A stretch of 64,000 nt of DNA from a virus (taxonomy: Duplodnaviria; Caudoviricetes), in IMG/VR virus record IMGVR_UViG_3300032311_000675, positions 723 to 64,722 of that record, one strand, 5' to 3'. The position numbers and the translations under genes were made by a program. Positions 1 through 63,631 of this stretch are shown one piece after another. Position 1 is the first letter of the stretch. The number at the start of each line of letters is the position of its first letter. The notes under the pieces are model-generated. The model did not search any database. It was not told where the DNA came from and saw nothing but the letters and a program-made list of their open reading frames with translations.

Positions 1-3000
1 TTTTATCGTCGTCCTTGTCTCCCTCCATGCTTCTAAACAGAGCCATCAGAATAGCCGTTCCAACAGCTCCCTCGGTCAAGCCAGCTACGGCGTTTTCGTA
101 GTTGGTCAGATCCATAAACCTCTGGCCTTCTTTATTTGTTTTGACTGAATTCATCGCTCCGATTGCTGAATCGGCCAGTCCTACAGGGGTGAAGGCCATC
201 CCTCTTGCCAGCACGTTGTACGAGATCCGAGCGAACAAGGTAAGGCCTCGAAGGATCTGTAATCCCATCGACCCACCGAAGGCCACAGGGGCCGTGACAG
301 CTCTTGCTCCACCCTTGCTCGGGTCAAAGCCCCAGTTTTCGAGGCTCTGGGAGGCGTCGGATATGCCTTTGCTAACTTTATTCAAAGCCCGAGGGATCGC
401 CTTGCCAGCCCTCTTGAATGTAAACGGCTCGTCTTCGTTTGAGGCTACATCCTCGTTAAGGGTCTCACGAGAAGACCGCTCAACTGCAATTTTCCAAGAG
501 TCAGACCCGTACTCGCTGATTTGGTTCCGCACATAGTTAACCATCTCTTGGCCTTTAAGGCCTTTTGCCTTGGCCATTCTGAATGCGATAGATCCTACGA
601 GGGTTTCTGCCGTGAATGATTTGGCGAACTCGTCGGCCGCCAAAAGAGCCCGCAGTGGCAAGCGAATCTTCTTTCCAAAAGAGCCAGGGATCTTTGGATC
701 GTTTTCGTAAAACTTCTGATCGCCTTCGTCCAGCAGGGTCGCATCGGTATGGTCGATGTTGTAGTAGGGCTTTTCGGTATTGAATGCCAAGCGGGCATAC
801 CGCAGTCCGTTAATTACGGAAGGCCACATCGCCATGAAAGCCTCTTTTGCTTCCTCGCTGGCTCCGTTCACAACATCCGACACGCTGGCGTATGGGTTCC
901 CGATTGTTCCGTCTGGAAGCCTCACATTGAGGCCAGCCTTGCCCATGAGGTAAGACATCCCAGCCTCCACCATCCGATAGAATGGGTTAAGAGCTACGAA
1001 AGGAGTCTTCGATACGTTGGCAAGCTGGGTCGATGTGCTGGATACAAGCAGGGCAACGTGGGCTTCAAATACTGCATCACCGACGCTGGCTTGTTTGCCT
1101 TGAGACCTACGAACCATTTGCATGGCCAGTCCGACGTTGCTTGGCTTCCTCCAGTCGAATAAGGAGCTTTTGCCGTCAACATTGTGCCAATCGGACTTGC
1201 CAGAGGTGTCTGACTGCCCTGCGTAGTCAAAACCCATCGCCGCAACGATCTCTGCCAGAATCTCTTCTTTGGTGAGGGGAACCTCATCTGGATTGGCTTC
1301 GATACCCCTAGACCGCAGGGATGCTCCGTTGGCAAATGCGGTCAACTTCGCTTTCAACTGGCTTCTTGTGATCCCTTGGGTCGCAAGCTCTCCAGCCACT
1401 TGGTCAAACCTCTGCTTTGTATTTGTCTCAAGAGATTTCATCAACTGCATCACTCTGGCTGGCTTGATTCCAGCCTGTTTAGCGGCCGCCATCGGAACCA
1501 TCCCAGCCATCACAAGTCGGATCGCCTCGGCGTCCTCTTTGGACATCTGAATTGTGTCCAGAACGTCTTTAGCTGACTTGCTTTCACGGATCTTGAGCTG
1601 GGCGGTATCCCAATCCATCTGCTCAAGGCTTGTGTTTGCTTTCGCCAACTCTGCCTGTAGGGCTTCGATCTTCTTGGCAGATTCCTGTTCTAGGACTTGA
1701 TATTTATCTAACTGATTCGCCCACGCTTGATTGGCGTCTTGGTATTCCTTAATCCGAGCCTCCATATAGGCTCCCCACTTCTGCCATTGTTCGTTTGCGT
1801 TGAAGGCCTCTCCAGCTTGGCTTCTGGCTTTATCCAGTTCGGCTTGAAGGAGGCGGATCTGCTCGTCATTTGCTTCCATCGACCTCTTTTTGAGGGTGGG
1901 GGAGATGGCGTTCCTATATAGTTCATCTGAATCTGGGCTTCTTCTGTAGAGTTCAGCATTAAAGAATGACCGATTCCGCTCATCTGCCGTCATCTGGCTG
2001 TCACGCCCGATCCGCAGGGTTCTTCCAAGATTCGTTCTTTTGATGTCGTTTGCCATTGTGAGAATCGCAATTTTACGAAGTTCCTCTGGGGTCTTGGCTG
2101 TCTTGGCGTCCTCGGCGAGGGCCATGAAGACCGCCGCTTGATTGGTTGCTGATGTCTCAAGAGTGCCTTCGAGTAGATCTGCATAGAGCTGGTCTTTGTG
2201 AGTAGCGACCAAGGCTCTTGCGGCGGCCAGAACGGATGCATCGGTCTCAATGGTATCAATAGGTCGGCGCATTTCTCTGGCTACCCGCTGAACATTGCGG
2301 AACTCGTCGTTTGCAAATGGGCCAGCACTACGGACATCTTGGCCTACATAGGGTGCGCCGACTTCGTAAGGAGCGTTCTCTTCGGATGCCCTTTGGTAGG
2401 TAGCGTCGATTTCTTCGTCGGTAATGACGCTTCCAGACGCACCCAAGAATCGAGCCAATAGGTCATTGAGCGGAGCTTGTTGCGAGCCATTGTTGATCGG
2501 CTCCTCATCTGGCATACGAAGGCCTCGTGAGAACATGCCCAATGATGGGTTCTCATCTCGTAGAGTCTGAGCCTTGTCCCTCATGTCTTTCATGGCTGTA
2601 TATTCTCTTATGTCAGCCGCAGTCATTCCGTATTTATAGGGCTTATTGTTTTCTTCTATTAAGGCATCTCTTTTTAATCGTTCTATTTCCTTGTCGGCCT
2701 TCTGTACCAGTCGATCCATTTGTTGCTTTTTGGTGATCCCTCGTGAAAAGAGCGAGAGTTGCTCCATTTTGGGAACCTCGACCTCTGGTACTGCCGACTG
2801 CTGTTCTAGGACAAGATTCTCTGGCTTTGTGCTTGTCTCCACTTGCATGAGATCTGACTGGAAGGCGATCCCAGGCCATTTCTCTTCACGAGCCTTGTTC
2901 ATCAGCATCGTGTAAAGAGTTTCCTCTTGTGACGACAACTGCTGGGGAGGTATAGGACGATAGTAGCCGTCGTCTTCCTTCTGGTAGGATCCGTGCTTTT

Positions 3001-6000
3001 TCTTGTGTAGCTGTAGGAGCTTGGTCTTTAGGACATCAATGTTGTTCCTGTCCTTGTCTTGGATTTTGATGCCTCGGGCAAACAGGGTGGCCTGTTCCAG
3101 CTTTTTCTCAATGTTCCCTTGGCGAAGATTTTCAACCATCTTCATAAAGTCGAACGGCTGGCTGGATAGTTCCAGAGCGGCCGATTGCCCTTGGGTCAGA
3201 ATGGTCGGCTTGATTGCCGAGTTCTGAATCATTGCGTTCCTAGCTTCTTGAGGAAGTTCGGCCGCCAAGGCTTGCATGTACTCCTTGAGGTTTCCGTTAA
3301 TCTCAATTCCAGCCTGTCCTGGTATCGAGGCCATCTCGGTTTGGAATCGGTTGTCGCTGTACATTTCGGTGACAAATTCGTGAATGTTTCCAAGGCCGTA
3401 GTAGATCGAGCGAACCTTCTGCGGGTCAGTCTGGATGTCTGAAACCTTTGTTCTGAACATCGGTGCAGAGGCACGCACCTTATAGGAAGCGTAAAAGAGT
3501 GGTTCCAGATCCTGCTGACGGAGCTTTTCGATACCACTTGGGGTCAGAACAAGGGTCGTGTTTTGCACTCCGCTTGTTTCCATTCCTTCCAAAGCCTCCT
3601 CGTCGGTCTGGTTCAAGAACACGAAGTCTGGGGATCCCTTGGAGGCCACAAGGCTCATTCCAGAGTTCCGACCCATTGGGCGTGTTCCTTCCAGCCCTTG
3701 ATCCTTTAGGTACTTGAGGAGAGGGAAGGTATTCTCGCTGGTGATTTCGGCCTTCATGTGGATCCCGTCCTGTCCAATCGGTTCTTCGTAAGGAGCCATG
3801 TGGAGGGTCACATCGTAGGTCGAGGCCAGTCCAGTACCGAAGATTGCATCTGCCACAGGGTTTCCAGCCGTATCCTTCGATACGTTAACAGCCGCCAAAT
3901 AGGCCTTAATTAGGGCTTTGAGGGGCTTGTATCCTCCCTTGCTTCCGTTTGCCAAGGGCAGGGGATTACCCTCTGCATCCATCTCGATATCTGGGCGGTT
4001 TGCGTACTCGACAAGTCTATCCAGCTCCTTCTTGCCTGTTGCCGTACCGATTCCTTCTTTGACTAAAAGGTTGTGAGTCAGAACGTGCTTGTATTCATGG
4101 ATTGTTGTTTCAATCGGTTCCCCGCTGTTCTTGATGCCGTGTAGGCTCAAGACAACCATTCCGTTGCCTTCTTTGGCTGGCTTGTAGTACGACCTTACAA
4201 AGCTCGGATCTGGGTTGATTTCGGCTGGGACATAAAGTCCAGCGGTCATCATGCTTTGCTTTGTGTTTGGCGTAGTAAGCAATTTCGCCAAAGCTCTTTG
4301 GCTGGGCAGGGCGTCTGGCTCGTTCGCAACGGCGTTAAGGAGATCCCTAAACAACACGCTATTTCCAGCGTTGCTGTCCAGATAGTTCGCCAAACCACGA
4401 GAGAACAGGGTCATCTGACCCTTGGTTTCTTCGATAGCCTTAAAGCCCTCCATCGGGCTGGCTTCGGTAGGCTCTTCTTTTGCGGTAGGTGCTTCGACCC
4501 CTAGGAAATTTGCATATTTAGATAGCTGACGCTGGAGGCTCTGGATGTGCTTAAACACCCAGAATCTGTCTGGGGCGACTTCGCCATCGAGGTTGCCCAC
4601 GTTCCTAGACTTGTAGGCCTCGGGGGTCTCGGAGATCTGCTGATAGCTCGCCCCGCTGACATACATCATAAAGATCTTCCTGTCGGAATCGGCCAGCGAG
4701 GCCATGACTTTTTCGAGCTTGTCGTAAAGTTCCTTGTTGGATTCTGGGGCTTCTTTTTGAGCCATGTAATCGCCCACGGAGGCTTCTTCTTGTTCGACAT
4801 CGCCCTCTTCGTTGAATGTCCCGCTTATCGGAGCATCTTTTGAGATGGTCTCACGATTCTTGGCTTCCTCTTGCATCTGCTTGATGCGGTTATCAACGGC
4901 AGACAGGATGAAGTTAGGTACGTTCTCAATCAGCTCACCCTTTGTATTCTGTCCGTGGCGATGATTGATCTGTGCCTGTAGGGCGATTGCGTAGTCGTAT
5001 AGGTTCTGGTGGATCTCATCCTCGCCTAAGTTTCCAGCTTCGAGCCATCCGTCATCCGATGCCTTCATCGCCTTGTAGCGAATGTTTCTTCCGATGACTC
5101 CTTCTGGGGAGAAGTCTTTTGCGTTATCGTCGGTCAAGAATCCTTCGACGATTTGCTCTTTGGCTCGGCCTTGACCAGCTTCACGGCGTAGACCCCTTGA
5201 GCGTAGCGAGAACCCATTCTTTGGCCCTCGATACATCCAAGCATCATGTCCTTGATTGATTTTAGCCACGATCATCGTTGCGATGGCGTTGCTGTTGTCT
5301 AATGCCTCTTTCCTGTAACCCTCGTTCTTATCATCGAGGAATGCTTTGTCTGGGATGTAGAGGCTTTGCCCAGAGATCATTGACCCGTCGCTGAACACAA
5401 CAGCCCGAGGTCTGCCTTCCTCGTCGATAATGTTGTCCATTACCTTGCCGACTGGGCCAAGCAGGGATCCTTGGCCTTTGGCTACTTCTGCCTTGAGGTT
5501 TACTAGGTTGTCGGAGTTCACCCCAGCGGGCATCACTACGCCAGTTGTCTTGCCACCATCCTTGGTTGTGAAGGTGGTGACCGCCGCTGGGACATTAGCC
5601 CCGAACATAGAGGAAACGAAATTCGCCCCTGTGAGGAGATTGCCTTCGACCACAAACTGGTCTCTCTGGGTCGCATTCTGCCTTGATCTATCGTAGGTCT
5701 TGCCGAATCCGTCACCCTTACGGCTTTCGGGCATCTTTTCCTCAACGTATCTATTCCAAGAATCTGGATCTAAGGCGTTATCTCCAGTAGTAAGCACCTT
5801 GTTGATTGCCTCGTTGAATACTCGGTTCTCGATCTCAGACTCTTCCATTCCGCTCTCGTGCATCTGAACCGCCATCTCGTATGCAACTGCATTAACCTCT
5901 CGCAGTTGTTCTGGGGGAAGAGTGTCCACGCATAGAAGGCGAGGCCCGCGCATAAAAACGACCAGACCAGATCCGTCCGTGTTGCGATAAATGCCAACTG

Positions 6001-9000
6001 GCAAACTTAGTGGGTCTACGCTTGGGTCACGAGTAGGGGCTTCGTTTTCGCCAATGGGTGACTTGTCTAAAGAAATCTTGAAAGGATTAACGTGAGCAAG
6101 TTCCGATGCCTGTAGCGGGATTCGGACTTTGTTCTCAAACCCAGCCGTCTGGAGGACTAGGTACTGCCGACTTTCGGCGTGAGGGAAGCGGTTGTTCAGC
6201 TCAACACCTACGACATAGGCGGGGATCTGTTTTGTATCCTTGCCGAACCAAGCTCCCTTACCAACGAGGTCTAAGGCTCGTTCCACATTGTACTTGGTCT
6301 CGGCGTACTGCTTCCGAGACTTCTCCAAAGCCCTTACCTTCGCCAGTTGCTCCATCCGTGGGTTGCTTGAAATACGGGCCAGCTTGTCCTTTAGGACAGA
6401 GTCGCTGGCTTTTAAGAAGTCTGATACGGCTGTTTCGGCCTGTTGCTTGGCCTGTTCGAGGGTCGGGATTACCTCTGCCGAGGTCGGAGGAGGGGTCGGG
6501 TTATTGAATCGGTATTTGGCGATGCGGGCTGGTTTAGAAAATGCGTCTTCACCAGACTTGGATTCTGGAACGCTTGTGTTGAAGATCTGTAGGTCTCCAA
6601 GCGTAGTCCAAGCGACTTCGTCGGTATAGTTGGATCCATTTTCTAATGCGTTTTGAGCCTTAAGAAGCGTTGCGGATCCAAAACGCTGTACACCATCCTC
6701 AGATGGTTCGCCCGCTTTGTAAACAAGTGTGTCATTACCGCTGTTTTCGTATAAGAACTTTAGGGTTACTGGCCCAAACACCTCTCCGCCTTTTGGATTT
6801 GCATAGAAATATAATGTATCGAGTTGTTTTTTGTTTGGTAATGCCGTTTTGGCGGGCTTGTCCGAACTCGCAACCCCATACGCATCCCAAGCCTTTTCGT
6901 CAGACAGCTTCTCGGCCTTGTAATCTTTTTCTTGTGATTCCAGCTCGTAGGTTCCGTTCTGCTTGGCGAAATCAACCATCGCAACGTATTCGGCTGTGAT
7001 CTCCTCGAAGAAATGCCTCTGATCCTCGATATCCAAGATCAACGCCTTGTGGATCATCCTTCGCATCCCATCCCCTGGCTCACCCGAAGTTAGGATCTTT
7101 CGGATATCCTCAAACTTCTCGGGGAAGTTCGTTCCAGCTCTGGTGTTGTAGGCCGTTCGTAGCTCTGGTTCGTTAGCCAATACAAGGGCTACGGCGTTGT
7201 CTCCGTAGGTATTTAGCATATCCAGCCCAAGGTTCTCGCCAGCGGCCGTTGCGTCTTTACCAGTCGTCGAAGCACCAAGACGGCGCATCTTCTTCTGGGT
7301 CATCGCCATAATCCGAACTTCGGCAGGGATGTCTTCGCTGTAGATGTAGACAAGTTTGGGCGCACTTTGCTGATTGTTGCGGTTTGTTCTGCCCAAAACT
7401 TGGATTGTGTCGACGATGTCGGGGGCTGGTTGCATCACAATATGGGTTCGTGGAGCTGAACTCTTGTTGCGGGGATCGTCGTGTGCCGACAGCCCAGTCG
7501 AGCCAGTTCGGCTGACGATCAGAACCTTCGTCTGGTCATTGTTACGGAAAGCGATTAGGGAGTTTTGCTTGTCTTGGTCGGTGACGGATCTCTGCGAGAA
7601 AGCACCAGAAGGGGTGACTGCGATGTCACGACCCGATATCTCAGCACTTAGGATCTGCCGTCTTTGCAGTTCAGCACGCAAGGCATCAAATGGGCTGATC
7701 GGGAGCTTGTTGAGGGTCTCGGCATTGTCTTTGATGATTAGAGCCAGATCCTTGAACCCAGTCTCCATTAAGGAGTCGTGAAGCTCGATAGACTTCTGGC
7801 TTACCCAGTTTGGGATGTTGGACTTGCCGTTGCTCTTGTTCCAATCAATCGTGAACTCAAGGGAGGGGGCGTCGCTTTTCTCGTCTTTTGGCCCGATCTT
7901 GACTTTGTTCGTGTTGAGCTTCCTTGCGTACCGCTCCATGAAATCCTTAAAGGTGACTTTTGCGGTCTTGTCGTAGCTTTGAAGGCTTCCGCCCTCCATG
8001 ATCTCCTTGGCGTCCCGAAGGAAGGCTTCGCCTGTCGTGTCCATTGAGATGAACACCTTGCGACCAGCTTTGATTTCAGCCTCGGCCAAGTCTGCTGTGT
8101 CCTTGATTTTAGCTCCAAGAACCATGTTGGCGGCGACATTGTGGAACTGGCCAGAAAGGGGATAGATAAGGGCTTTTGCTTCCGTTCCGTCGTAGGCTTC
8201 CTGTGCATCCTGTACGAGCTGTTGGGTCAGCTTCTTCATCTTTTCGCCGATCTCGATCTGCCTCATTTCACCAAGAATTTCATTGGCGGCATTATGGGCA
8301 TCAATGACCTCTTGCTTGGCTTTGATCGGGGAGGGAATGAATGGGATCTTCTGACCCTTCCAAGTAAATCCACTCTGGAGTCGGAACATCTGCCCAGCTC
8401 GAGACAGCATACTGCTGGTCATCTGCATAAATGGATTTCCGAACCGCTTGGCGAGTCTCTCGAACTCACTTGCGGTAGGAACAGCCATTGGGATGCTGGT
8501 CTTGGGGAAGTAGGTGGCGATGTTGGCGGGGCTTTTGATAGCCGTTGCCGAAGAGAACACCGCTCCTCGTGATTTTGGAATTACGCTTCTAAAGAATTCG
8601 CCGATGGAGCTGTCTGTTCCCGCCGCATTGTGGCTCTCATCCAAGATGAAGATCGCCCTGTCTGCGATTGCATTAAGGGCAGGGATAACATCCTTTTTAG
8701 TTACCGAGGAGATCTGGGCATAGGTCGTAAAGACTGCGTTATGCTCACTTGGCATCTTGCCAGTCTGTGCGGTGAGTCGGAGCTTCTGGATCGGGTTCTT
8801 CATTGTAACTGGGCGACCCTTGCTACGCATCGAACTCCAGTTGTTATTTGTGATGAGAGGCTTGATCTGCCCCTCGAACCCTACGTCCTCGATGTCATCC
8901 AGCATCGCTGGGTACAAAGGCTCGGATTTGGTTACAAAAACAGGGATTAGGCCTTTTTTGAGGGCATAAACGGCCATGATTGACCCAACGATCCGACCCT

Positions 9001-12000
9001 TACCAACACCCATCTCGTGTCCGATAGTAAGGCTTTTGCCTTTCTCAATCTGATTGATGGAAAGGGCGATGGTCTCCAAGGCTTCTGCCGAGAGCCTTTC
9101 CTCGCCGTCATCCCGCTTGAAGATCTTATCGACAGGGATCCCGATCATCTTTGAGACGTACTGCGGGATCGGGCCGACCTCTTTGACCAGCTCGTTAATA
9201 GCAGAGGTCTGTTCGGGTGCGAGGTTGGCAGGGGCTTGTAGCCCTAAAGAGTAGTAGCCATCAATCTTCTTGGATTCTTCTTCTCCAACTGGAGTCCAGC
9301 TCTCTTGTAGCTCGGCCTTTTCTTGGTCTTTGTCGATCTGCTCTTCACGAGGATCTGGGGCAGGGAGGCCTCTGGAGCTTAATCTGGTTTTAGATAGGGT
9401 CTTCTCGACTGCCTTTTGAGCGGCACTTTGAATTGTCTCTCCAAATGAATTCTCTGACGCAATTATTGGAACTCGGTTCCCAAATATATCCGTCTCGCCC
9501 ATGTCCTTGAGGTCTTGAATCTTGGCTTCCAGCTCTGAGGCCAGATTGTTTAGGTAGCTCGATAGCTTTGCGCTGGAATCTCTGAAATCGTAAATAGGCT
9601 GGAAGACGTCGGCGGAAGTCTGGTCGAGGATATTTTCCGCAAGTCCAGGGATCTGGCTTCTGTTGTTCTCGACGAACGACTGCCAATCCTTGGGAGTGTT
9701 TTCGCCACCAGACCTCTTGGCCTCCAGATAGGCCTGTAGTGACTTGGCAATTGGAACAAGCGGGTCGAGCTGGGATGCTTTTTCTGCACCTAGAACCTCT
9801 GTGGCTATCTGCCGTAATGAAACAAGTCGGGTAACTGATTTCGTTAGGGCGGCGGCCAAAGTCTTTACCCCAGCGTTGCTGTTCTCTGGGTCGGTAATGG
9901 CGGAGATGATGATCTTTTCGGAGTCTGTAATCTTGCCGTTATTGGAGCTGGCAATCGCATCAGCGAGAAGGGCGGAGGTTACTCGATCCTTGAAGGCCTT
10001 GGTAAAGCTCTCGTCGTTGTTCCTGTACTGCTGTGGGGATCCAAATATCTCAAAGAACTTCTGCTGAATCGCAACATTTTCTGGGGTTTCCGATAGATCT
10101 CCGTTTTCGTTTTGCTTGATATCTCGGAGTTCTGGGTTGTCCTGTATTTCACGAGCATCCGCAACCGCAAGCTCCTCTGTGGCTAAAGTTCCAGCGTTTG
10201 CCCTTACGGCTAGTCGCCTCAAGAACTGCTTTGGAGTTTTGTTGACGCCAAGCCCAGTTGCCGTCTTGTTGGACTCTTCAAAGCTCGCCATTAGATCCAT
10301 CTCGGTGACCACAATCGGCATCTTCATAGATCGGATCTGTTCGGCCATTTCTGGGAAAACCTCCATCAGCTTGGCTCGATAGGCGGCCGCCCGCTCTGGG
10401 TAGCGACGGAACATTTCCATCATTGCCTTGATTCGTCCGTGACCGCTTACGATTTTGTTTTCAGCAGTAAGGATGGGTGCGCCGTCTCCAGTTGAAGTCC
10501 CTGGCATCGCTTTATCTGGATCCCAGTTGCGAGCCATTGTTTCGATAAGTTCTTTGTACGCCTTTCGATCTTTTCGGTTTCTGGGTTGGATGTCCGTGCC
10601 TTCCATGTCCTTGGCCTCGGTGGCCTCGATGATTTTGGGCGTCCCGATAACTGTTGACCCAGTAAAGCCCTGCGTGAATGCCTTGATCGTATTCTTCTTG
10701 GCTGTTGGGGCGGGTTTGTTTTCGCCCATCATCTTTTTGGTGATTTCAGATTGCGGTACTTCAATCGTGTCCTCGTCCGAGGTCTTGGCGATTTCTTTGA
10801 TTGAGGCTCGGATATCCATGCCAGCCAGTTTGGCCTCCGCCGAGTTCATGCCTGTCGCATCCATAACGAACTTCATGTAGTCAGCATCTCTGCGACTGGG
10901 GTTCGACTGGGCTATGATGTACAAGGCCTTGTCGATGTCGTTATGGAAGTTTAGGGCAAACTGATTTGCTCCGTAAGCGTAACGAGGGCTTGCTCCAGCT
11001 AGGTCTCTAGGAAGTCTTGGAAGCTCGGTTCTTGGTGCTGGCGGAGCAGGGGGAGCAGGGGGAGCAGGGGGAGCGGGGGGAGCGGGGGGAGCGGGCGGAG
11101 CTGGTGGCTCTGGGGGAGTTGGAGGTGCGGGTGGCTCTGATTGTTCCGTGCTTTGATCCGATTCTGCTGTGGCAGGGGCGGTAGGCCTTGGATTTGCTCC
11201 AGTTGAGGGAAGGTTAGGCTGAACTAGGCCACCAGACCTCTTGCCTGTAATGGACGCTGGCGGGACTCCGAGTCCAGCCCAGTCCACCTTCTTGCCTTTG
11301 AGTACATCTTGTATCTTGTTCAGGAGGTCATCCAGTTCTGCTCCGACTTGCGGATTTGCGCTGGAAAGAGCCTTACGCATCCGACTCAAGGCCTTGTACA
11401 CCGACATGATGTACTTTTTGATGGAATTGATTAAGTCACGGACGCTCGATTCAGACTTCTGCATCGTTGTTGTGTCTTTGCCTTGGGCGGAGGCTCTTAG
11501 GTCAATTCTGCTTTCCGTAAGCCCAGACTTGCTTTCGATCTGACCTAATTGACGGAGCATTTCGCTCATTACAACCATCGTCTTGGTGTCGCTTCCACCC
11601 AAGAAGTCCGATATTTCCTCCATGCTCATAGAGGTCGGCATATCTGGGTTGTATAAAGAGATGGAGGAGACCAGCGCAGTTGCTACTTGTGTGTCGCTTT
11701 TGCCTACCTCCAAAATCTTGTTGAAGAGGTCACTCCGCCTCTTGATGTGATAAGGGGCGTACTCCTCTGGCTTTAGTCCGAGGGCTTTAGCCTCAAGGTA
11801 GGAAGACGCAAAGTCGCCAACGTGCAGAAGTTCCTCGTGGAACGCTCTGTTGTTTATCTCTGGGTCTACGGAATCTTGGAAAGCAAACTGGTTTGGATCC
11901 ACCCTTAATGTAAGAGAGCCGTCCTCATTTGGGACGACTTGCATTGAGGTCGATTGGCCTGTGATTTCACCTTCCTCGTAGCCGACCTTAATCCCATCCA

Positions 12001-15000
12001 CCGACAGGCCTTTGGCAATTTCCGAGGTCTTTTCTTTGGCTGACCGCATTCGCTCGATCGTTGTTGTTCCAGCCAGCCGATTCCCAGTCCTCTGGAGGAG
12101 CTTGCTTGGTGAGTTTTCGAGAAGGGGCTTCTCAACCTTTTCTGGTTCGTCTGAGGACCCCTCCGTAGTTGGCATCCCGAGGCTCTCAACTCTTGCCTCG
12201 ATGGCAGGGATCATGCTCTTGATGTTTTCGTAATCGATGATTGAGGGGACGTTCTTAAAGAAATCTTCGGCAAAACTTGGATTTAGGATCGTCGCTCCGT
12301 CTTCTCGTGTCTGGAAGATAGGCATTCCCTTGATCTTGTAAGACCCCATCTCCTCGGTTATCTGGCCTCCAGTAATGATGTAAGAGGCCGCTTTTGCCGC
12401 CTCTCTCTGGCTCAATTCACTTTTGGATGCAGGGACGTCAGATAGCTGGCTGATCTCATTACGGGTGTTGTTTTGGGCTTTTGCCAATGCAGAGATTGTT
12501 TCAGCAACGTGCGCTCTTACTGCGAAGTACTCCATCTCGTCGGCGTTCTCCTTGAGCAAATCCAGCTTGTTGCCGATATTGATAAGCCTGTTTGCGGGCT
12601 TGAGGGCTTCGGGTTCTGGTTCGCTCTTAGATAGTTCGCTCTTAGATTCAGTTCTCCCCTTTTCGATTGCTTGAAGAACTTTTTGTATATTTTGTCGTAG
12701 TCTCTCGGGCGACTCGGGTAGATCCTTTTCAACTGGTGTTACCCCGATTTCACCTAAACCCTTATTAATTGAATTTCCAGACCCAACTGGTTTTCCGCTT
12801 GTTTGTGTGCCTAATTGTGCGTCCAATCTCTCTGCCATCGCTTTTAACTCTGGGGAACCATAATGAGCGTTTATTTGTTCCTGAGTTCCCTTGTTGATCC
12901 AACCATCTTTACCAATACCAAAAACTGGATACCATTTATCTGCCTTTACGTTTTTCTTACCAGCTTTTCCAGTTGATCTGTAAAACGGAATTTTAACCCC
13001 GTTAACATCGACAACCACCATCTCTCGATCCGCAAAACGAACTACTTTTGACTTACCGCTAGTCTTCTTTACAGATTGAGTAGCCTCATCCCATTCTAGA
13101 TTATTTTCGTAAGATATTTCTTCAAGGTTAACTTCTGGCGTTAATGTAGGAGCGACAGCTTCTGCAACTTGCTCAGCTAATGGCCTTGCGTTAAGGACAA
13201 CATCAGAAGGGGATCCAAATCCTTGGCTGTTTGCCCAAGCCTCCCATCCTCCTGGTTCAATGTCTGCCGTGGCTTTTTGAAGCTCGAACGATGCTCCTTC
13301 TTGGGCTTCGTCAGTTGCACCGATCGTGTTAATGAACTCCTGTCCGAACATGACGCTCTTCTCGGCTCCCGCTGTTACTTGAACTGCAAGACCTCCAGTT
13401 GCGGCCGCAATGATAATGCTCCGTGCCACTTCCTCGTTTGGGTCTCTGGCGGGGTCATAGTCTGCAATCTCAATGGCAATCTGATTGAGCCATCTCTGCT
13501 GGAGTCCTTCGGTAACGCCTTCTACTGCTCCACCCTTGATTGACGGCCACAAAAACTTTGACGCAGACAGGGCATATTTAGCCAATAGGTTTCTGGCTTG
13601 GGTGGCTGGGAGCTTGGCGAGGGCGAGCTTTTTGCCCAATCCCAAGGTGAACTTGTCTGAAATTGTATCAATCCCTGCGGCGGGCAGAGCGTAGGTCAAT
13701 GCGGCAACGTGGCTCTGGCTAGGGGTTAATACTATTCCAGTCTTTTTCTGGGCTTCCTCTTGGTCGGCGATTGCCTCGGCATACAGAGACGAGACATTCC
13801 CAAGATATCCAACAGCACCAGACCCAATAGGCCCAAGCGGAGCGGAGGCAACGTAGGTCATCATCTGAGCTGGAAGCTCTGAAATGCCCTTGATAACACC
13901 GCCTGTTACGCTTGCGTTAAAATCATCATCGGTAGGGAATGTCTGGTCGAGCCAATCCCTGTTCTCTTTGGCCGCTTGAGATGCGTTAAGGAAAAACTCT
14001 CCACCGCTACCACCAAGCTGGCGTCCGACCAGTGCGTAGAACCCGCTGGCTTGATCTTGGTTAAACCGAATCGACCCCTTGATCGCTTGGTTAATGGTGT
14101 TCCCAATAAATCCTCGTTTGTCCTTCGGTGCTTTCTGGATCTCCTTGCTGGCCTCGATGGCTACTTTTGTTGGGATCTCTTTGTTCTTCGCCTTTTCCAT
14201 CAGCGAGTCCGTTGGAGCTTCTGGACTGATATCCGCTGGCTTTGGCTTTACCGCTTCGCCAGTTAGGTATTTCCTCTGATTAACAGCTCCAGCGGTCTTG
14301 TTTGCCTCATAGTCAATCTTGGCCTTTTGGCTTTCCGCCTCCTGTTTAGCACTTTCAATAGCATCTTTTTCGAGAGACTGGGCTGATTCGAGGGACTGGT
14401 TGCCCATAATGACGCTTGGCAATTTTCCTTTGAGGTCGGCCTCAAGGACATCAATAGCCCTGCTGGATGCGTCAATTTCATCTTGTGAAGCCCCAGATTT
14501 GATAAGCTCATTGTGTTGGGCAATGGCTAGATCTGTCTTTTTCCGCAACAGAGTCCATACAGCTCTAGCGTTGACGGCGGGCTTTTTAATTTCGTCGGTG
14601 TATTCGGCAAGCTTCTGTTTGCGGTTCTCAAGGTTGGCATCGACTGATTTCTTAACTTGTTCTGCCTCTTGTCGAACTCCCTTGGCTTCCTCTGATTCTG
14701 GGAGGCCAATCATCATTCCGTTAACTACGGATGGGATCATGCCCTCGAGGGCTTTGGGAAGGGCAGGGGCGTCTGGGTCGAGATTGCCTAAATTGAGGGA
14801 CGATGCTGACTTTTGTAGCTCTGCATATATCGGATCATCCTTGGGGTCATTTGACTTGGTGCCGTCAGCTTTGACAATGCCTTGCTTGCGAACGTCTTGA
14901 CCTCTTTGCATGAGGGCGTTGAAGGTTGCTTCTTTTTGCTTTTGCTTCGCAAGTTCCGCTTGGAGCATTTTGTGTTTCGCAAGTTGCGATTCTTTTTCAT

Positions 15001-17290: not shown

Positions 17291-17339
17291 CTCTAACAAC
17301 TGGACAACAGAGTGTAGGCCTCAACAGATTTTCTGTTGG

Positions 17340-17350
17340 GTGCGACGCAT
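17340..17350. promoter_or_regulatory. Late-type palindrome GTGCGACGCAT
   Basis: Centre 17345 is 55 bp upstream of ATG 17290; TTGAGG at -34. Confidence 0.7.
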
Positions 17351-19095
17351 TAGGAGTAACTGGCGACAGGGGTTCTTGCCATATAGATTGGCTGTAGATC
17401 CTTTGGCAAAGTCCTAACCGCAGATGGGGTGTTGAATCTTGTCGCCCCAGCGATGGTCGTAATTCCAATAGCTATGGCCAAAACATCGTCGTCGTGCCTA
17501 CCAGCGGCCGCCTCGGATCTACCGCTTTCGGTGATAACAAAGGTCTTCAACTCCTCAATGGCGTGACGGCAGAATATGTCGATTCCAGACCCTTTTTCGT
17601 CGTGATCTCTGATAGCTGACGCAAGTTCCTCAATGACAATGCGTCTCGTCTTGTCCGTGGTCTGCCATCCCAAGGCTTTGCTACGTTTAGATTCTCGTAA
17701 ATTAAAGATTTCACGCTGATAAAGGTTAATGCTGGACTCTTTGAGTAGCTCGATCAGAGCCAGTCCTGGGCCGTTGACCTCTGGGACTACTAAACACCCT
17801 CCGTAAAACAGGGAAAGTCTCTCAATAAACTCGGCTAATACGTCAATATCGACTCGGCAGGGAGGTCTGACCCTTGCCACAAGAGCGGGACGGATCCACG
17901 AGCCGTCTGAATCGAAGTATCCAGCCCTTAAAACGACCACAGAGTGGGAATCTGGGTCAGCTCCAGAGACTTGGGAGTTGCCTGTCATACAATCCGCTGA
18001 AATTAGGTATCTGCCGTTCTCTTTTGGGTTTTCCCATATCCACGCCCAGCTTTCGGCCATAGAACAGCTTCTAAATATGGGTTTTGTAAAGTTCGTCGGG
18101 ACGTCGATTGTGCCGTAAATGGGGTCTTTTATGGTTTTTTCGAGGGCGGAGATCCCAGAAAGATCAAACCGAGGCCGTCCAGACGCCAAAAAGCAACTAA
18201 TCGGGTCAGAAGGGTACTCTTGCTCGAATTGTTTAACATCTCCACCGCACTTTTCCTTGATGACTCGACGCCTCCAAGCAAGCTGGTTGTCGGTCAGCGA
18301 AAACTCTTCCTGTAGGGATTGCTCCTTAAAGGACAGCTCAAGAGGTTCAGTTACAGGCTCTTGGTTTTCCTCGAAGTTATGCCAAGCGGCGAAGATTCGG
18401 ATGTATCCGTTTCCTGTTTTTCCGCTCTTGTACTCGTCAAATGTGACCGCACTCTGCCAAGTATTGTAAAAAGCTCCACCAGCTCCGTTCGGGGTGGATT
18501 CCTCGATGACAATGGTGTTGGGCGAGGTGGGTACGCAATTACGAATGGCCAATAGGATCTTTTCACCAGACCGCTCTCCAGCTCGGCGATAGTGGGCGAC
18601 CTCAGAGCAGAGAAGGGCTTGGAGTGTCATGGATCGCCCTGCACCAGGATCGTTGGCGGTTTCCTTGGCAATTCTGCTTCCGTTGGATAGCTCGCCTCTG
18701 GACACGCTGAATGTTTGCCCCCAATCGAGGTTGTCGTTTTCTACATACCGATTGACCATGTTCAGAAGGTTCTGCGAGGTATCCAGCTCGTCACCCAGAA
18801 CACAGGCCGTTGCGTTTTCTGTGCTACGGATAAAATGGGTAATGACGGCGGCCGTGATGGTGCTTGATCCCATCTGCCGAGGCTTCAAGACAACAAGGCG
18901 AATAGGTTTTTGGTTCTTCTTTAGCCAGCGGATGACTTGGGCAACGTGCCTCTGGAGATAGTTAGCCCTTGGGCTTACCAGCTTTGCGTCCTTAGTAAGG
19001 ATCTTGGTGTAGGTCTCCCACCACGCAAGGAAGTCGGCCTGTGCAACCGCTTCGATGGTCTCGATGGTTACTTGCGCTTTTTCTTTTTCGGCCAT
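17350..19095 (-). CDS. terL: Terminase large subunit
   Basis: VLKPRQMGSST Walker A, LLCSEVAHY Walker B, EESTPNG motif III, RNase H-like C-terminus (ISADCMTG...HDDDVLA). Confidence 0.95.
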   Translation of the reverse strand: MAEKEKAQVTIETIEAVAQADFLAWWETYTKILTKDAKLVSPRANYLQRHVAQVIRWLKKNQKPIRLVVLKPRQMGSSTITAAVITHFIRSTENATACVLGDELDTSQNLLNMVNRYVENDNLDWGQTFSVSRGELSNGSRIAKETANDPGAGRSMTLQALLCSEVAHYRRAGERSGEKILLAIRNCVPTSPNTIVIEESTPNGAGGAFYNTWQSAVTFDEYKSGKTGNGYIRIFAAWHNFEENQEPVTEPLELSFKEQSLQEEFSLTDNQLAWRRRVIKEKCGGDVKQFEQEYPSDPISCFLASGRPRFDLSGISALEKTIKDPIYGTIDVPTNFTKPIFRSCSMAESWAWIWENPKENGRYLISADCMTGNSQVSGADPDSHSVVVLRAGYFDSDGSWIRPALVARVRPPCRVDIDVLAEFIERLSLFYGGCLVVPEVNGPGLALIELLKESSINLYQREIFNLRESKRSKALGWQTTDKTRRIVIEELASAIRDHDEKGSGIDIFCRHAIEELKTFVITESGRSEAAAGRHDDDVLAIAIGITTIAGATRFNTPSAVRTLPKDLQPIYMARTPVASYS

Positions 19096-23917: not shown

Positions 23918-24496
23918 ATGGCCGATGTGAAAGAGGCTTGGGACAAGTTGAAGATCGACGGATTCTTCACGCCACACCTACGAGTCAAGGAGGCTGGAAA
24001 CAAGGGGCTGGGAGTTTTTGCAAATATCGATATTGAGAAGGGGAAGCCGATTGAGTTTTGTCATTCCATCGTGATGGAGCATCGCAACCGCTATCAGCAC
24101 GACCCAGAGTTTCGTCGCTACTCTTACTGGGCTAATTGCGATTGTGATGAATGCAAGAAGCACGGATCCCAAGCTGTTCTACCTTTGGGCAATGGTTGTA
24201 TTTACAACTGCGCTGATGCACAGGAGCTGGCGAATTGTGCGTACAAGGTGATTCCCAATCAGAGGTTGGTGGTATTTTTTGCTGTCAAAGATATCAAAGC
24301 AGGGGATGAGATTCTGACTTGGTGGGGGCAGGGGTATTACAACCGATATTGTAAGGCTAGTTCTCCCCCCGATACGAAGGTGGTTGATGGTACAGCGTCG
24401 GCCACTTCTGATTCTTATCCGACATCTCGTACTGAATCTTCGGATCCACGCCCTGTCGAAACTTCGGCAGAAGCAAAAGTCGAGACCAGCCAGTAA
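23918..24496 (+). CDS. SET-domain protein-lysine methyltransferase-like protein
   Basis: KGLGVFANIDIEKG, LPLGNGCIYNC, FFAVKDIKAGDEIL. Confidence 0.85.
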   Translation: MADVKEAWDKLKIDGFFTPHLRVKEAGNKGLGVFANIDIEKGKPIEFCHSIVMEHRNRYQHDPEFRRYSYWANCDCDECKKHGSQAVLPLGNGCIYNCADAQELANCAYKVIPNQRLVVFFAVKDIKAGDEILTWWGQGYYNRYCKASSPPDTKVVDGTASATSDSYPTSRTESSDPRPVETSAEAKVETSQ

Positions 24497-24546
24497 GTTT
24501 GTTAAAGACACTAGGCCTTCCAGACTTGGGGATTCCTGTGAGTAGT

Positions 24547-25185: not shown

Positions 25186-25267
25186 ATCCCTGTAGTCCTC
25201 TGGTGTTCCCATTTTTGCGTTCTGGGTGTCCGAATTAAAAAGGGGTACCCTTTCGGACAAGGTTTCT

Positions 25268-25435
25268 GTGACAGAAATCGTGACATAACGGTTTTGTCAC
25301 GCAAATGTCACGCCTTGGTAGTTCTTAATAATTAAGCTATTCCAAAAGCAAGCCGTGACACGTCACGCTCTGTCACGCCCTTGCAACGAAATAATCACGG
25401 GGCAGAAGCCAGAAGCCAGAGGCCAGAAGCTAGAT
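25268..25435. repeat. Iteron-like (C)GTGACA/TGTCACG repeats plus CCAGAAG heptad repeat; candidate origin or res site
   Basis: Seven copies at 25268, 25279, 25295, 25306, 25354, 25361, 25371 in both orientations, followed by AT-rich DNA. Confidence 0.65.
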
Positions 25436-25987: not shown

Positions 25988-26269
25988 CTAGTCCAAGGTA
26001 ATCGTTCTGGTCTTGTGGTTTGCCCGCTTAAAGATTGCCAGCCTGTTGCGGGGTTGCGTCTTCAGTTCCGCCCATAGCCTTTCAACCGCTGACAGGTCGG
26101 GCGTTTCCGCACATACAGGCGAAGCGGGCGAAGATATCCACGCCGAGCCGTTTTCTAGTTCTTCTAGGGTGTATTCGTCCTCTGGTAGTCGAAAACTCTG
26201 CCTCGCCAGCTCTAGCCGTGGGTCTTCCTTAAATCCGTTCCACAATGTCTTCCAGTTCGTTGTATTCAT
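25988..26269 (-). CDS. Hypothetical early protein
   Basis: ORF begins at +1 of the early motif. Confidence 0.6.
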   Translation of the reverse strand: MNTTNWKTLWNGFKEDPRLELARQSFRLPEDEYTLEELENGSAWISSPASPVCAETPDLSAVERLWAELKTQPRNRLAIFKRANHKTRTITLD

Positions 26270-29570: not shown

Positions 29571-29574
29571 AATC

Positions 29575-61200: not shown

Positions 61201-61375
61201 CTGCCATATAGGCCGAGTGCCTGTTTTGACGTTCTTCTGGGGTAATTCCCGCCTCTAAAACTGCCTCTTTAAGGCCTTCCAGATGCCTTGAAAGGGTCGG
61301 TAGGTACCACTCGTTGTACCCAGAATTGTCTTTTAACCGCTCTATGAGTGCCAGTTGGCTGGCTGGATCGCTCAT
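61106..61375 (-). CDS. Small portal-adjacent protein (Bbp19-like position)
   Basis: ATGA coupling to the portal; overlaps the convergent gene by 95 nt. Confidence 0.6.
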   Translation of the reverse strand: MSDPASQLALIERLKDNSGYNEWYLPTLSRHLEGLKEAVLEAGITPEERQNRHSAYMAVKEVLALVPSQEAALYRILQGHESRPEPRRK

Positions 61376-63597: not shown

Positions 63598-63631
63598 ATT
63601 CGATTTCAACCATCAATGGCGAGGCGTGCGA

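What the first reader, a model, noticed from the sequence alone, without database searches (positions are those of the whole stretch)
4410..5188. Sigma-factor-like module inside a giant virion polyprotein: candidate injected sigma factor
Seen: in the unannotated >5280-aa ORF, a ~265-aa segment shows sigma70-family features in order. These are EDEIHQNLY...NFILSAVDNRIKQM (region 2-like), ISKDAPIS...VGDYM (region 3.2-like) and LEKVMASLADSDRKIFMMYVSGASYQQISE...VFKHIQSLQRQL (region 4 HTH, with an extra insert in the turn). The segment is bracketed by LRSRGL (5206-5189) and LFSRGL (4408-4391). No RNA polymerase or free sigma gene is visible elsewhere in the window, yet 16 non-sigma70 promoter-like motifs are present. 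Known: DarB-like polyvalent proteins are packaged and injected with phage DNA; N4 and crAss-like phages inject whole RNA polymerases. Inference: this phage may inject only a cleavable sigma factor that redirects host core RNAP to its early genes.
Basis: partly seen in the sequence, partly recalled or inferred. Interest (0 to 1): 0.92.

Follow-up and report, generated by a model that had tools for sequence, protein, structure and literature searches.

The report
Sigma-factor module inside giant phage protein
An uncultured 64.7-kb phage carries a real but very diverged sigma-factor domain inside a 5,605-residue multi-domain protein encoded among its head genes, so it may bring its own promoter-recognition factor into the host with its DNA, though packaging, cleavage and RNA-polymerase binding are not shown.

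Summary
Residues 3555-3820 of a 5,605-aa open frame (window 4391-5188, minus strand) form a two-domain sigma70-family module, sigma2-acidic linker-sigma4, ECF-like. NCBIfam sigma70-ECF matches at E 8e-7 and all six families hit are sigma factors. Pfam Sigma70_r4_2 hits 11 of 11 clade members. An AlphaFold model finds sigma2 (Z 7.5) and sigma4 (Z 6.4) structures, and about 30 of the 50 best PDB rows are sigma factors. All HMM scores lie below curated cut-offs, and no region-2 HMM hit was found. The module is under purifying selection (dN/dS 0.07-0.09). It is bracketed by two of seven conserved LxSRG[LI] motifs, against 0.17 expected. It is the only sigma-like sequence in the complete genome, and no RNA polymerase was detected. 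The carrier is a polyvalent-type protein (DdrB-ParB, Strawberry-notch helicase, one HEXXH) inserted between terminase and portal. Injection, cleavage and core binding remain inferred. The GCAACAC-N4-GGACTC motif is real (17 copies) and sits at -23 to -7 from start codons. That fits a -10-type element for leaderless mRNAs, but there is no -35 element, so its link to the module is unproven. The scan has noted sigma modules in head polyproteins of at least eight other phages (unchecked notes). No paper describing this was found in four searches.

The parts
2..15850 (-). Giant open frame. 5283 codons lie in the window, and the full frame is 5605 codons because it runs on past window position 1 and across the record's junction. 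It is a polyvalent-type multi-domain protein.
   Evidence: 14 homologues of 3018-5611 aa
4391..5188 (-). Sigma-like segment, aa 3555-3820 (266 aa), from just after LRSRGL through LFSRGL.
   Evidence: dN/dS 0.07-0.09 over the wider 306-codon P0001 region, window 4349-5266
4853..5134 (-). Sigma2-like helical domain (P0001 residues 45-138).
   Evidence: Model blocks of pLDDT 51-85. 8b3z_A SigE N-terminal domain Z 7.5, rmsd 3.0, 77 aligned; 1sig_A sigma70 Z 7.1. TIGR02937 profile match starts at residue 114. No Sigma70_r2 HMM hit.
4751..4852 (-).
   Evidence: pLDDT under 50 for residues 139-178. Spanned by the TIGR02937 match. Identity with region 3.2 was not tested.
4493..4750 (-). Sigma4-like four-helix domain with HTH (P0001 173-258).
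   Evidence: 3hug_A SigL sigma4 Z 6.4, rmsd 2.3, 71 aligned; 2h27_D sigmaE region 4 Z 5.8. Pfam Sigma70_r4_2 positions 2-34 of 54.
4568..4609 (-). 14-residue insert between the two HTH helices (P0001 220-233).
   Evidence: Secondary structure and pLDDT under 50 at 222-229. The Pfam match stops before it.
5189..5206 (-). LRSRGL motif at the N-terminal border of the sigma segment.
4391..4408 (-). LFSRGL motif at the C-terminal border of the sigma segment.
9365..9382 (-). LSSRGL motif between the ParB-containing N-terminal part and the helicase.
1301..3085 (-). Four further motif copies: LFARGI 3068-3085, LFSRGI 2735-2752, MFSRGL 2519-2536, LRSRGI 1301-1318.
4085..4099 (-). HEYKH, the only HEXXH in the giant protein. 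It lies in the 441-aa segment after the sigma module, which is the most conserved segment (83-95% identity to four relatives).
   Evidence: No family or model support.
10301..10642 (-). DdrB-like ParB domain (aa 1737-1850).
   Evidence: PF18763, E 2e-16, above cut-off
6941..9100 (-). Strawberry-notch-type SF2 helicase (AAA_34/ResIII plus Helicase_C_4; aa 2251-2970).
   Evidence: PF13871 E 2e-25; PF13872 27.2 bits; PF04851
353..889 (-). C-terminal stretch weakly similar to 'internal virion protein D' of a T7-like marine phage.
   Evidence: tblastn 28.3% identity over 179 aa, E 2e-4, KT997847.1
25193..37756 (-). Cluster of 17 copies of GCAACAC-N4-GGACTC. 15 are followed after 6-7 nt by ATG, and 12 of those open ORFs of 78-212 aa.
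17350..19095 (-). Large terminase subunit, two genes upstream of the giant gene on the same strand.
   Evidence: phrog_24361, E 1e-13; tblastn matches to terminases
61372..63609 (-). Portal protein, directly downstream of the giant gene on the circular map.
   Evidence: phrog_1216, E 4e-23; position

Best explanation
SHOWN: the segment is a genuine, strongly diverged sigma70-family module of ECF-like build (sigma2, about 34-residue acidic linker, sigma4 with a 14-residue loop in the HTH turn). It is under purifying selection. It lies inside a 5,605-aa polyvalent-type protein whose gene is inserted between the terminase and portal genes.

INFERRED, in order of decreasing support:
(1) The giant protein is made late, built into the head and expelled with the DNA, like P1 Dar proteins or N4 vRNAP.
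(2) It is cut at the seven conserved LxSRG[LI] sites, probably by the adjacent HEXXH segment, which frees a fragment of about 30 kDa.
(3) That fragment binds host core RNA polymerase through sigma2.
(4) It directs the core to the phage's own promoters, reading GGACTC at -12 to -7 as a -10-type element. Transcripts would then start at the A of the start codon and be translated without a leader.

Step 4 leaves the upstream half of the motif (GCAACAC at -23 to -17) unexplained.
For: Sigma identity:
- TIGR02937 E 8.1e-7 over a collinear stretch from late region 2 to the first HTH helix. All 6 NCBIfam families hit are sigma factors, and 11 of 11 clade members hit.
- Pfam r4_2 in 11 of 11 members.
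- Two PHROG 'RNA polymerase sigma factor' families, weakly: E 0.0048 and 0.12.
- Fold search: sigma2 Z 7.5 and sigma4 Z 6.4 in the right order, with about 30 of 50 rows sigma factors.
- Foldseek: 8 of the top 10 PDB rows are sigma chains, at weak E-values. The named rows among the weak BFVD hits are mostly phage sigma factors.
- The only named Atlas clusters among 30 are Sigma70_r4_2 and r4 (a lead only).

Functional constraint: dN/dS 0.067-0.088 in 5 of 5 pairs.

Carrier:
- DdrB-ParB and Strawberry-notch helicase are above or at cut-off. Both are named among polyvalent-protein domains, and 'jump-start transcription' is a stated theme (PMC5512222; abstract and passages).
- Gene order is TerL, 481-aa gene, giant, portal. 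The nearest isolates have TerL, small ORFs, portal.
- Weak internal-virion-protein-D match.

Sites: 7 motifs against 0.17 expected. They are conserved in 14 of 14 homologues and absent from the capsid, portal and scaffold candidates.

Need for a delivered factor:
- No other sigma or polymerase signal in the complete genome.
- Sigma70-type promoter-like sites in 24000-39500 are at chance level, 10 against 9.7.

Motif as promoter:
- Fixed 6-7 nt to ATG in 15 of 17 copies.
- GGACTC at -12 to -7; T at -1 in 12 of 16 and A at +1 in 14 of 16.
- C at -9 in 16 of 16, where a Shine-Dalgarno would have G, while other genes use GGAGG.
- A 13-bp-stem terminator ends just before one copy.

Precedent: the phiEco32 gp36 sigma reads a single element with the start 6-8 bp downstream (PMC8948821, passages).
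Against: - Every HMM score is below its curated cut-off (17.7 against 25.7; 28.8 against 42.9). There is no Sigma70_r2 hit.
- Only the first 34 of 54 r4_2 positions align, and the recognition helix is displaced by an insert.
- Model confidence is moderate: mean pLDDT 55, with sigma4 blocks at 48-67. All Z scores are under 8, a range the tool calls common for helical models.
- phmmer against 1.84 billion representatives, tblastn against 50,697 phage records and PDB sequence searches found no sigma factor.
- Packaging rests on context and one weak match. Pfam and PHROGs gave no virion family for any part.
- The protease is only an HEXXH string.
- The DNA motif has no information at -36 to -31. 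A phage sigma that does have region 4 (7-11 gp47) reads a bipartite promoter with a 16-nt spacer.
- The motif's upstream half lies where sigma4 on the flap cannot normally reach (established holoenzyme geometry, recalled).
- The host is unknown.
- Module and motif co-occur only within one clade.
Confidence: 0.4

Rival explanations
1. The module is delivered but is not a promoter-specificity factor. It acts as a sigma mimic that occupies host core RNA polymerase, or titrates an anti-sigma or other sigma partner, to shut off or bias host transcription. The GCAACAC-N4-GGACTC elements would then be read by something else.
For: The sigma2 and sigma4 folds are present, but the recognition helix is displaced by a 14-residue insert and only half of the r4_2 profile aligns. 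The DNA motif lacks a -35 element. Polyvalent proteins are mostly made of host-modifying and anti-defence domains (PMC5512222, passages).
Against: No other sigma or polymerase that could read the 17 elements was detected in the complete genome. The GGACTC position at -12 to -7 fits a sigma2-type -10 element.
Confidence: 0.2
2. The giant protein, or at least its sigma segment, is not packaged. It is made late and processed in the producing cell, where the sigma fragment serves as a middle or late sigma factor, like phiEco32 gp36 or T4 gp55. The motif-bearing small genes would not be the earliest class.
For: The gene lies in a late-looking head operon. All characterised phage sigma factors I know of act after synthesis in the infected cell (PMC8948821 passages; PMC7824862 passages). 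The timing of the motif genes was not measured.
Against: The motif is absent from the head, tail and giant genes and is confined to a run of small ORFs opposite the replication genes, which is the usual look of early genes. ParB-DdrB and helicase partners are typical of injected proteins. Burying a late sigma inside a 620-kDa precursor would be costly.
Confidence: 0.12
3. The module is a DNA-binding piece of a pilot or protective protein. Sigma4 (HTH) and sigma2 would bind phage DNA directly, with the ParB domain and helicase, to guide or shield the entering genome, without engaging RNA polymerase.
For: The neighbouring domains are DNA-binding or DNA-translocating. Seven of the 50 fold rows are LuxR/GerE-type HTH regulators that bind DNA on their own. 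The two motif halves are one helical turn apart, which would suit two linked DNA-binding domains.
Against: The sequence match is to sigma families across sigma2-linker-sigma4, not to LuxR-type regulators. Free sigma factors generally bind promoter DNA poorly without core (established knowledge, recalled).
Confidence: 0.13
4. The resemblance is a chance or convergent helical arrangement, and the segment is a linker or structural module with no relation to sigma factors.
For: All HMM scores are below curated cut-offs, Z scores are under 8 and model confidence is moderate. No single-sequence search finds a sigma factor.
Against: Three independent HMM libraries name only sigma families for this stretch. 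The genome-wide E-value is 1.5e-8. Two separate domains hit sigma2 and sigma4 structures in the right order, and 16 of the first 17 rows are sigma factors. dN/dS is 0.07-0.09.
Confidence: 0.05

Closest known systems
Polyvalent proteins of phages and conjugative elements (Iyer, Burroughs, Anand, de Souza, Aravind 2017, PMC5512222; abstract and passages read)
   Same: One very large polypeptide joins unrelated domains: DdrB-like ParB, a Strawberry-notch-type helicase and a possible zincin. It is encoded beside the portal and terminase genes. Processing by an embedded metallopeptidase and 'jump-starting transcription' are themes stated in that paper.
   Different: The word sigma (or the Greek letter) occurs 0 times in that paper's main text, so a sigma module is not among the domains described there. 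The supplements could not be seen. No MuF domain or MPTase family match was found here. The seven-fold LxSRG[LI] motif is not described in the passages I read.
Virion RNA polymerases: N4 gp50 vRNAP and the crAss-like and phiKZ-like virion polymerases (PMC4496689 and PMC13434306, search listing and abstracts only)
   Same: A giant protein encoded in a genome of similar size (N4 about 70 kb; recalled) is carried in the capsid and starts early transcription from non-host promoters.
   Different: No polymerase catalytic domain was found here. PF00940 gave no hit. No DxDGD motif occurs in any frame of 150 aa or more, except in one open frame of 196 aa holding a 188-aa early ORF. No T7-type motif B was found. 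Only the specificity subunit would be delivered, and the host core would do the synthesis.
Free-standing phage sigma factors: phiEco32 gp36 and phage 7-11 gp47 (PMC8948821, abstract and passages), T4 gp55 and jumbo-phage 'minimal' sigmas (PMC7824862, passages)
   Same: A diverged sigma70-family protein re-targets host core polymerase. The gp36 promoters are a single element with the start 6-8 bp downstream, like GGACTC-N6-A here.
   Different: Those are separate genes of roughly 160-370 aa, expressed after infection to drive middle or late genes. This one is an internal segment of a late head-module protein and has no detectable sequence relative outside its clade.
Bacterial ECF (group 4) sigma factors, for example SigE, SigL, SigH, SigW, AlgU and CnrH structures
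   Same: Two-domain sigma2-linker-sigma4 build without sigma3. The best fold matches and the best HMM (TIGR02937) are of this kind.
   Different: Scores are below family cut-offs and there is a 14-residue insert in the HTH turn. The candidate promoter has no -35 element at a 16-17 nt spacing. No anti-sigma partner is evident.
T4 Alt, a packaged ADP-ribosyltransferase that modifies host RNA polymerase (as summarised in PMC5512222, passage)
   Same: A capsid-borne protein changes what host polymerase transcribes at the very start of infection.
   Different: Alt acts by enzymatic modification, not by supplying a subunit.

Membership tests
sigma70 family (ECF-like, group 4 build) | Sigma2 domain fold (regions 2.1-2.4) | tested here: met
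   Model residues 45-138 against 8b3z_A (Z 7.5, rmsd 3.0, 77 of 80 target residues), 1sig_A (Z 7.1) and 3ugo_A (Z 6.7). Model blocks of pLDDT 51-85. Z is under 8, so support comes from the enrichment of sigma rows, not from one score.
sigma70 family (ECF-like, group 4 build) | Region 2 recognised by a sequence profile (Pfam Sigma70_r2) | tested here: not met
   No PF04542 match at E up to 1 in the six-frame genome search; the control rang in 11 of 14 genomes. TIGR02937 aligns only from profile position 49-50, which is late region 2.
sigma70 family (ECF-like, group 4 build) | Sigma4 domain with HTH (regions 4.1-4.2) | tested here: met
   Model 173-258 against 3hug_A (Z 6.4, rmsd 2.3, 71 aligned), 2h27_D, 3vep_D and 8jzt_A. 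Pfam r4_2 positions 2-34 of 54 in 11 of 11 members, all below cut-off. The second HTH helix follows a 14-residue insert.
sigma70 family (ECF-like, group 4 build) | Score above the curated family threshold | tested here: not met
   TIGR02937: 28.8-29.7 bits against 42.9. PF08281: 17.7-20.3 bits for the window's protein against 25.7; bit scores of the other clade members were not returned.
sigma70 family (ECF-like, group 4 build) | Binds core RNA polymerase (beta-prime clamp helices, beta flap) | not testable with these tools
   Needs biochemistry or a reliable complex model with the unknown host's polymerase.
sigma70 family (ECF-like, group 4 build) | Cognate bipartite promoter (-35 and -10 elements, 16-17 nt apart) | tested here: not met
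   The only over-represented element spans -23 to -5, and information content at -36 to -31 is 0.02-0.23 bits. This is not strictly defining, because phiEco32 gp36 uses a single element.
Phage polyvalent proteins (Iyer et al. 2017) | Several unrelated functional domains in one very large polypeptide | tested here: met
   DdrB-ParB, AAA_34/ResIII + Helicase_C_4 and the sigma module in 5605 aa.
Phage polyvalent proteins (Iyer et al. 2017) | Encoded in a virion or packaging gene neighbourhood | tested here: met
   TerL, a 481-aa gene, the giant gene and the portal lie on one strand.
Phage polyvalent proteins (Iyer et al. 2017) | Zincin-like metallopeptidase (MPTase) for processing | tested here: inconclusive
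   One HEXXH (HEYKH, aa 3918) lies in the most conserved segment. There was no Pfam or PHROG peptidase match. The model was unusable, pLDDT 32. The Atlas lead LPD23 is carried by 18% of one cluster.
Phage polyvalent proteins (Iyer et al. 2017) | Delivered into the host with the DNA | not testable with these tools
   The only hint is a 28% identity match, E 2e-4, to an annotated internal virion protein D.
Virion RNA polymerases (N4-like single-subunit; crAss/phiKZ-like two-barrel) | Polymerase catalytic domain and motifs | tested here: not met
   PF00940 gave no hit, though its control was silent. No DxDGD in the giant protein. No R-x3-K-x6-8-Y-G/S motif B. Very diverged polymerases could escape these tests.

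The most novel reading that the evidence does not exclude
This phage starts infection in a third way, beside host-sigma early promoters and injected whole polymerases. An expelled, self-cleaving head polyprotein releases a ready-made sigma factor. That factor captures host core RNA polymerase and reads a compact private promoter (GCAACAC-N4-GGACTC at -23 to -7, with no -35 element). The result is leaderless early mRNAs that need neither a host sigma nor a Shine-Dalgarno sequence. If the scan's unchecked notes on at least eight other phages hold, this would be a widespread, undescribed strategy.
Probability: 0.25. Interest if true: 0.9.

Novelty: new variant of a known kind. Interest (0 to 1): 0.7.

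Why it matters
Phages are known to take over transcription in three ways: using host sigma70 for early genes, making their own sigma or polymerase after entry, or injecting a complete polymerase (N4, crAss-like, phiKZ-like). A capsid-delivered sigma factor would be a missing intermediate, in which only the specificity subunit is shipped and the host's catalytic core is borrowed from the first second.

It would explain how a genome with no recognisable host-type early promoters and no polymerase gene can start. It would add a transcription module to the catalogue of polyvalent-protein domains. It would also supply a compact orthogonal sigma/promoter pair, with leaderless expression, for synthetic biology.

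It predicts that naked phage DNA is not infectious and that early transcription is rifampicin-sensitive yet independent of host sigma. Both predictions are directly testable once a host is found.

Tried and rejected
- Complex prediction of the sigma2 part (A1 residues 40-145) with E. coli beta-prime 215-345 gave no verdict: score 0.02, mark 0.32, controls not run. It counts neither for nor against binding.
- The AlphaFold2 model of the HEXXH segment was unusable, mean pLDDT 32, so no fold search was made with it.
- Pfam and PHROGs on ten and nine separate pieces of the giant protein added no domain beyond ParB, helicase and sigma.
- phmmer and hmmsearch of the module against PDB sequences found only troponin C and rubrerythrin at E above 0.2.
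- hhalign of A1 against E. coli RpoE alone gave probability 0.2. Both sides were too shallow to be informative.
- phmmer against 1.84 billion representatives found only the module's own cluster.
- tblastn against phage records found nothing. blastn of 6 kb against phages and plasmids found nothing.
- Foldseek against PDB and BFVD gave no row at E 0.001 or better.
- Co-variation of module and motif could not be tested:
  - An exact scan of IMG/VR for motif+N6+ATG found 18 stretches. Only three contigs had 2-4 copies, all from the module-bearing clade.
  - Five single-copy contigs examined had 1-2 copies and no module.
  - Five of five clade relatives examined had 5-15 copies on one strand.
  - More diverged relatives (73-81% identity) are not in IMG/VR or the JGI contigs searched.
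- Metatranscriptome contigs (4 runs laid of 9 listed) hold relatives 90-99% alike. They cannot show starts, strand or level, so they give no evidence on transcription starts, and uncovered parts mean nothing.
- A T7-like reading of the motif (GACTC at -11 to -7, recalled from the T7 promoter) was considered. It was dropped because no single-subunit polymerase signal exists and the -6 to -1 bases do not match.
- A Shine-Dalgarno reading of GGAC was considered. It was judged unlikely because C at -9 is invariant, while other genes use GGAGG.
- A clamp-binding reading of Q-x-x-L-F before three of the seven LxSRG sites was considered. It was set aside because SRG[LI] is the conserved part.
- Rfam gave no family in the window, and no tRNA was found.
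- Literature: four full-text searches found no paper on a packaged or injected phage sigma factor. Supplements were closed and may list domains I could not see.

Full report
WHAT THE WINDOW IS. The window is positions 723-64722 of a 64,722-bp IMG/VR virus record with a 123-bp direct terminal repeat, rated complete. G+C is 50.7%. The minus-strand frame from 15850 to 2 is open for 5283 codons in the window. Read round the junction of the record it is 5605 codons.

PHROGs identify a large terminase at 17350-19095, a portal at 61372-63609, a major head protein at 53428-54990 and an exonuclease at 40254-41339. On the circular map the minus-strand order is terminase, a 481-aa gene, the giant gene, portal.

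The nearest terminases among isolates are 28-30% identical: Roseobacter phage CRP-7 and a Manatee Spring podovirus. Both sit two small ORFs, or none, before their portal genes. The giant gene therefore looks like an insertion into a conserved head block. The host is unknown. One homologue carries an NCBI name from a Micrococcales metagenome bin, which is weak evidence.

THE OBSERVATION. I kept the 306-residue stretch window:4349-5266:- as P0001.

Sequence profiles:
- Pfam finds Sigma70_r4_2 at E 0.0029 (17.7 bits, cut-off 25.7), covering profile positions 2-34 of 54.
- NCBIfam finds TIGR02937 (sigma70-ECF) at E 8.1e-7 (28.8 bits, cut-off 42.9) over residues 114-213 = profile 50-141 of 165. The five other families hit are all sigma factors.
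- In the alignment of 11 clade members (A1), 11 of 11 hit Sigma70_r4_2 and 11 of 11 hit TIGR02937.
- A six-frame search of the whole genome gives this place as the only match to PF08281 and TIGR02937 (E 3e-5 and 1.5e-8). It gives no match to Sigma70_r2.
- PHROGs adds two weak 'RNA polymerase sigma factor' families.

Structure. The AlphaFold2 model has mean pLDDT 55, with blocks 41-130 at 51-85 and sigma4 blocks at 48-67. It was searched against 48,161 PDB representatives without Foldseek.
- Sixteen of the first 17 rows are sigma70-family factors. So are about 30 of the 50 rows, by my reading of titles and chain lengths. Seven more are LuxR/GerE-type HTH regulators.
- Residues 45-138 match sigma2 (SigE N-terminal domain Z 7.5, rmsd 3.0, 77 aligned; E. 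coli sigma70 fragment Z 7.1).
- Residues 173-258 match sigma4 (SigL sigma4 Z 6.4, rmsd 2.3, 71 aligned).
- All Z values are below 8, which the tool warns is common for helical models. The weight lies in the enrichment and in two domains matching in the right order.
- Foldseek gave no row at E 0.001 or better. Even so, 8 of its top 10 PDB rows are sigma chains, and the named rows among the weak BFVD hits are mostly phage sigma factors.

Between the domains lies a 34-residue acidic, low-confidence linker. Between the two HTH helices lies a 14-residue insert. The build is thus that of an ECF-type sigma.

The module is strongly constrained. dN/dS is 0.067-0.088 in five of five comparisons with relatives.

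It has no detectable sequence relative outside its own clade:
- 1 cluster at E 0.001 or better among 1.84 billion representatives;
- no tblastn match in 50,697 phage records;
- no sigma factor in PDB sequence searches.

THE CARRIER AND THE BRACKETS. Pfam gives a DdrB-like ParB domain (E 2e-16) and a Strawberry-notch-type helicase (Helicase_C_4 E 2e-25; AAA_34 and ResIII at or above cut-off). Both kinds of domain are listed for the 'polyvalent proteins' that phages and plasmids send into cells with their DNA. That paper names zincin processing and 'jump-starting transcription' as themes, yet does not contain the word sigma in its main text (PMC5512222; abstract and passages).

The pattern [LM]x[SA]RG[LI] occurs seven times: aa 2157, 3549, 3815, 4256, 4367, 4439 and 4845. 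Shuffles of the protein gave 0.17 on average and at most 3 in 2000. It stands at matching places in all 14 homologues. It is absent from the capsid, portal and scaffold candidates. It divides the protein into eight pieces, one of which is exactly the sigma module.

The next piece (441 aa) holds the protein's only HEXXH. It is the most conserved piece, at 83-95% identity to four relatives against 72-88% for the sigma piece. I could not show that it is a peptidase: no family matched and the model failed.

A stretch near the C-terminus matches an annotated 'internal virion protein D' of a T7-like marine phage at 28% identity, E 2e-4. This is the only direct hint of an ejection-protein relationship.

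THE DNA MOTIF. GCAACAC-N4-GGACTC has 20 matches at up to two mismatches against 1.5 expected. Seventeen lie on the minus strand between 25193 and 37756.
- Fifteen of the 17 are followed after 6 or 7 nt by ATG. Twelve of these ATGs open ORFs of 78-212 aa and three open ORFs of 10-39 aa. Two copies lack the ATG, and one of them has a leader with AAGGAG instead.
- A logo of 16 copies shows one contiguous element: an A/T-rich stretch at -30 to -25, GCAACACCAAAGGACTCCA at -23 to -5, T at -1 (12 of 16) and A at +1 (14 of 16). There is essentially no information at -36 to -31.
- GGACTC therefore sits exactly where a sigma70-family -10 hexamer sits if transcription starts at the A of the start codon.
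- The invariant C at -9 argues against a Shine-Dalgarno role, since other genes of the phage use GGAGG 4-8 nt before ATG.
- A 13-bp-stem terminator ends just before one copy.
- Host-type sigma70 promoter matches in this region are at chance level, 10 against 9.7.
- In metatranscriptome contigs from lakes, relatives diverge exactly at the motif and carry other genes behind it, again after 6 nt and ATG (loose ends at 30581 and 31196). These contigs cannot show transcript starts.

I read the element as a promoter for leaderless mRNAs, but this is inferred.

DOES THE MODULE READ THE MOTIF? In favour:
- No other sigma and no polymerase was detected. PF00940 was silent, though its control was also silent.
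- There is no DxDGD motif except in a 188-aa early ORF, and no T7-type motif B.
- A phage sigma that reads a single element with the start 6-8 bp downstream is known (phiEco32 gp36; PMC8948821 passages).

Against:
- The module has a region 4, and the related 7-11 sigma with region 4 reads a bipartite promoter with a 16-nt spacer (same paper).
- Here nothing is conserved at -35, and the second block lies at -23 to -17. From recalled holoenzyme geometry, sigma4 on the beta flap does not reach that position.
- The module and the motif co-occur in five of five clade relatives examined, and nowhere else in IMG/VR in multiple copies. This is one lineage, so it is not a test.
- More diverged relatives could not be reached.

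VERDICT. The sigma module is real (about 0.9). Its carrier being a packaged, expelled polyvalent protein is likely (about 0.7). Cleavage at LxSRG[LI] is plausible (about 0.55). Engagement of host core polymerase is about even. Reading of this particular motif is about 0.3.

Four full-text searches found no description of a capsid-delivered phage sigma factor. Supplements were closed.

The scan's own notebook lists sigma modules in head polyproteins of at least eight other, unrelated phages. These are unchecked AI notes and not independent evidence, but they suggest the fusion recurs.

I class it as a new variant of a known kind: a polyvalent protein carrying a transcription-specificity module. 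It is of high interest because it makes a new take-over strategy directly testable.

Noticed in passing
window 25193-37756, minus strand: The promoter-like element is one contiguous block: an A/T-rich stretch, then GCAACACCAAAGGACTCCA at -23 to -5, then T-1/A+1 of the start codon. It is followed in about nine copies by ATGAACAACAAC-like first codons. It looks like a private promoter for leaderless mRNAs, and its -24/-12-like spacing matches no sigma70-type geometry I know.
   Followed up: partly
window 30581, 31196, 27986, 26737 (read laying loose ends): In lake metatranscriptome contigs, relatives diverge from the window exactly at copies of the motif. They carry different genes behind it, again 6 nt before ATG. 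The motif thus marks the borders of exchangeable early-gene cassettes.
   Followed up: partly
window 29205-30159: The deepest RNA-library contigs (depth 400 in X1, 142 in X5) cover the stretch that includes a gene-poor, reportedly structured region at 29353-29570. Rfam has no family there. Contig depth cannot rank expression.
   Followed up: partly
window 24547-25185, minus strand: The last motif-driven gene begins MTTSNAGIYLRVSTDEQ. From memory this is the N-terminal signature of small serine recombinases (resolvase/invertase type). It hints at site-specific recombination or a temperate habit. It was not run against a family library.
   Followed up: no
giant protein aa 3808-3820, 4249-4261, 4360-4372 (window about 4391-4429, 3068-3106, 2735-2773): Three of the seven LxSRG[LI] sites are preceded by Q-x-x-L-F (QMTLF, QATLF, QLSLF). 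From memory this resembles the bacterial sliding-clamp-binding pentapeptide. If cleavage left it at a C-terminus, the fragments could dock on the clamp.
   Followed up: no
window 30596-31162, minus strand: A 188-aa early ORF contains WGTKWN and DFDGD. DFDGD is the only DxDGD string in any long frame of the genome. The ORF is too small for a polymerase subunit, and its function is unknown.
   Followed up: no
giant protein, a proline-rich tract (about 40 residues) in the N-terminal piece (aa 1-2162); exact coordinates not computed: A run of PPAPPAP repeats forms a proline-rich spacer between the N-terminal region and the ParB-containing region. An HEELLH string (HExxxH, not HEXXH) lies upstream of it.
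   Followed up: no
window 15854-17299 and 15850: The 481-aa gene of unknown function ends 4 nt before the giant gene's ATG, so the two are probably co-translated or coupled. Neither Pfam nor PHROGs names it.
   Followed up: no
window 56102-61200, plus strand: A plus-strand cassette (867-aa and 458-aa proteins with no family match) interrupts the minus-strand head block between the portal and the scaffold and capsid genes.
   Followed up: no
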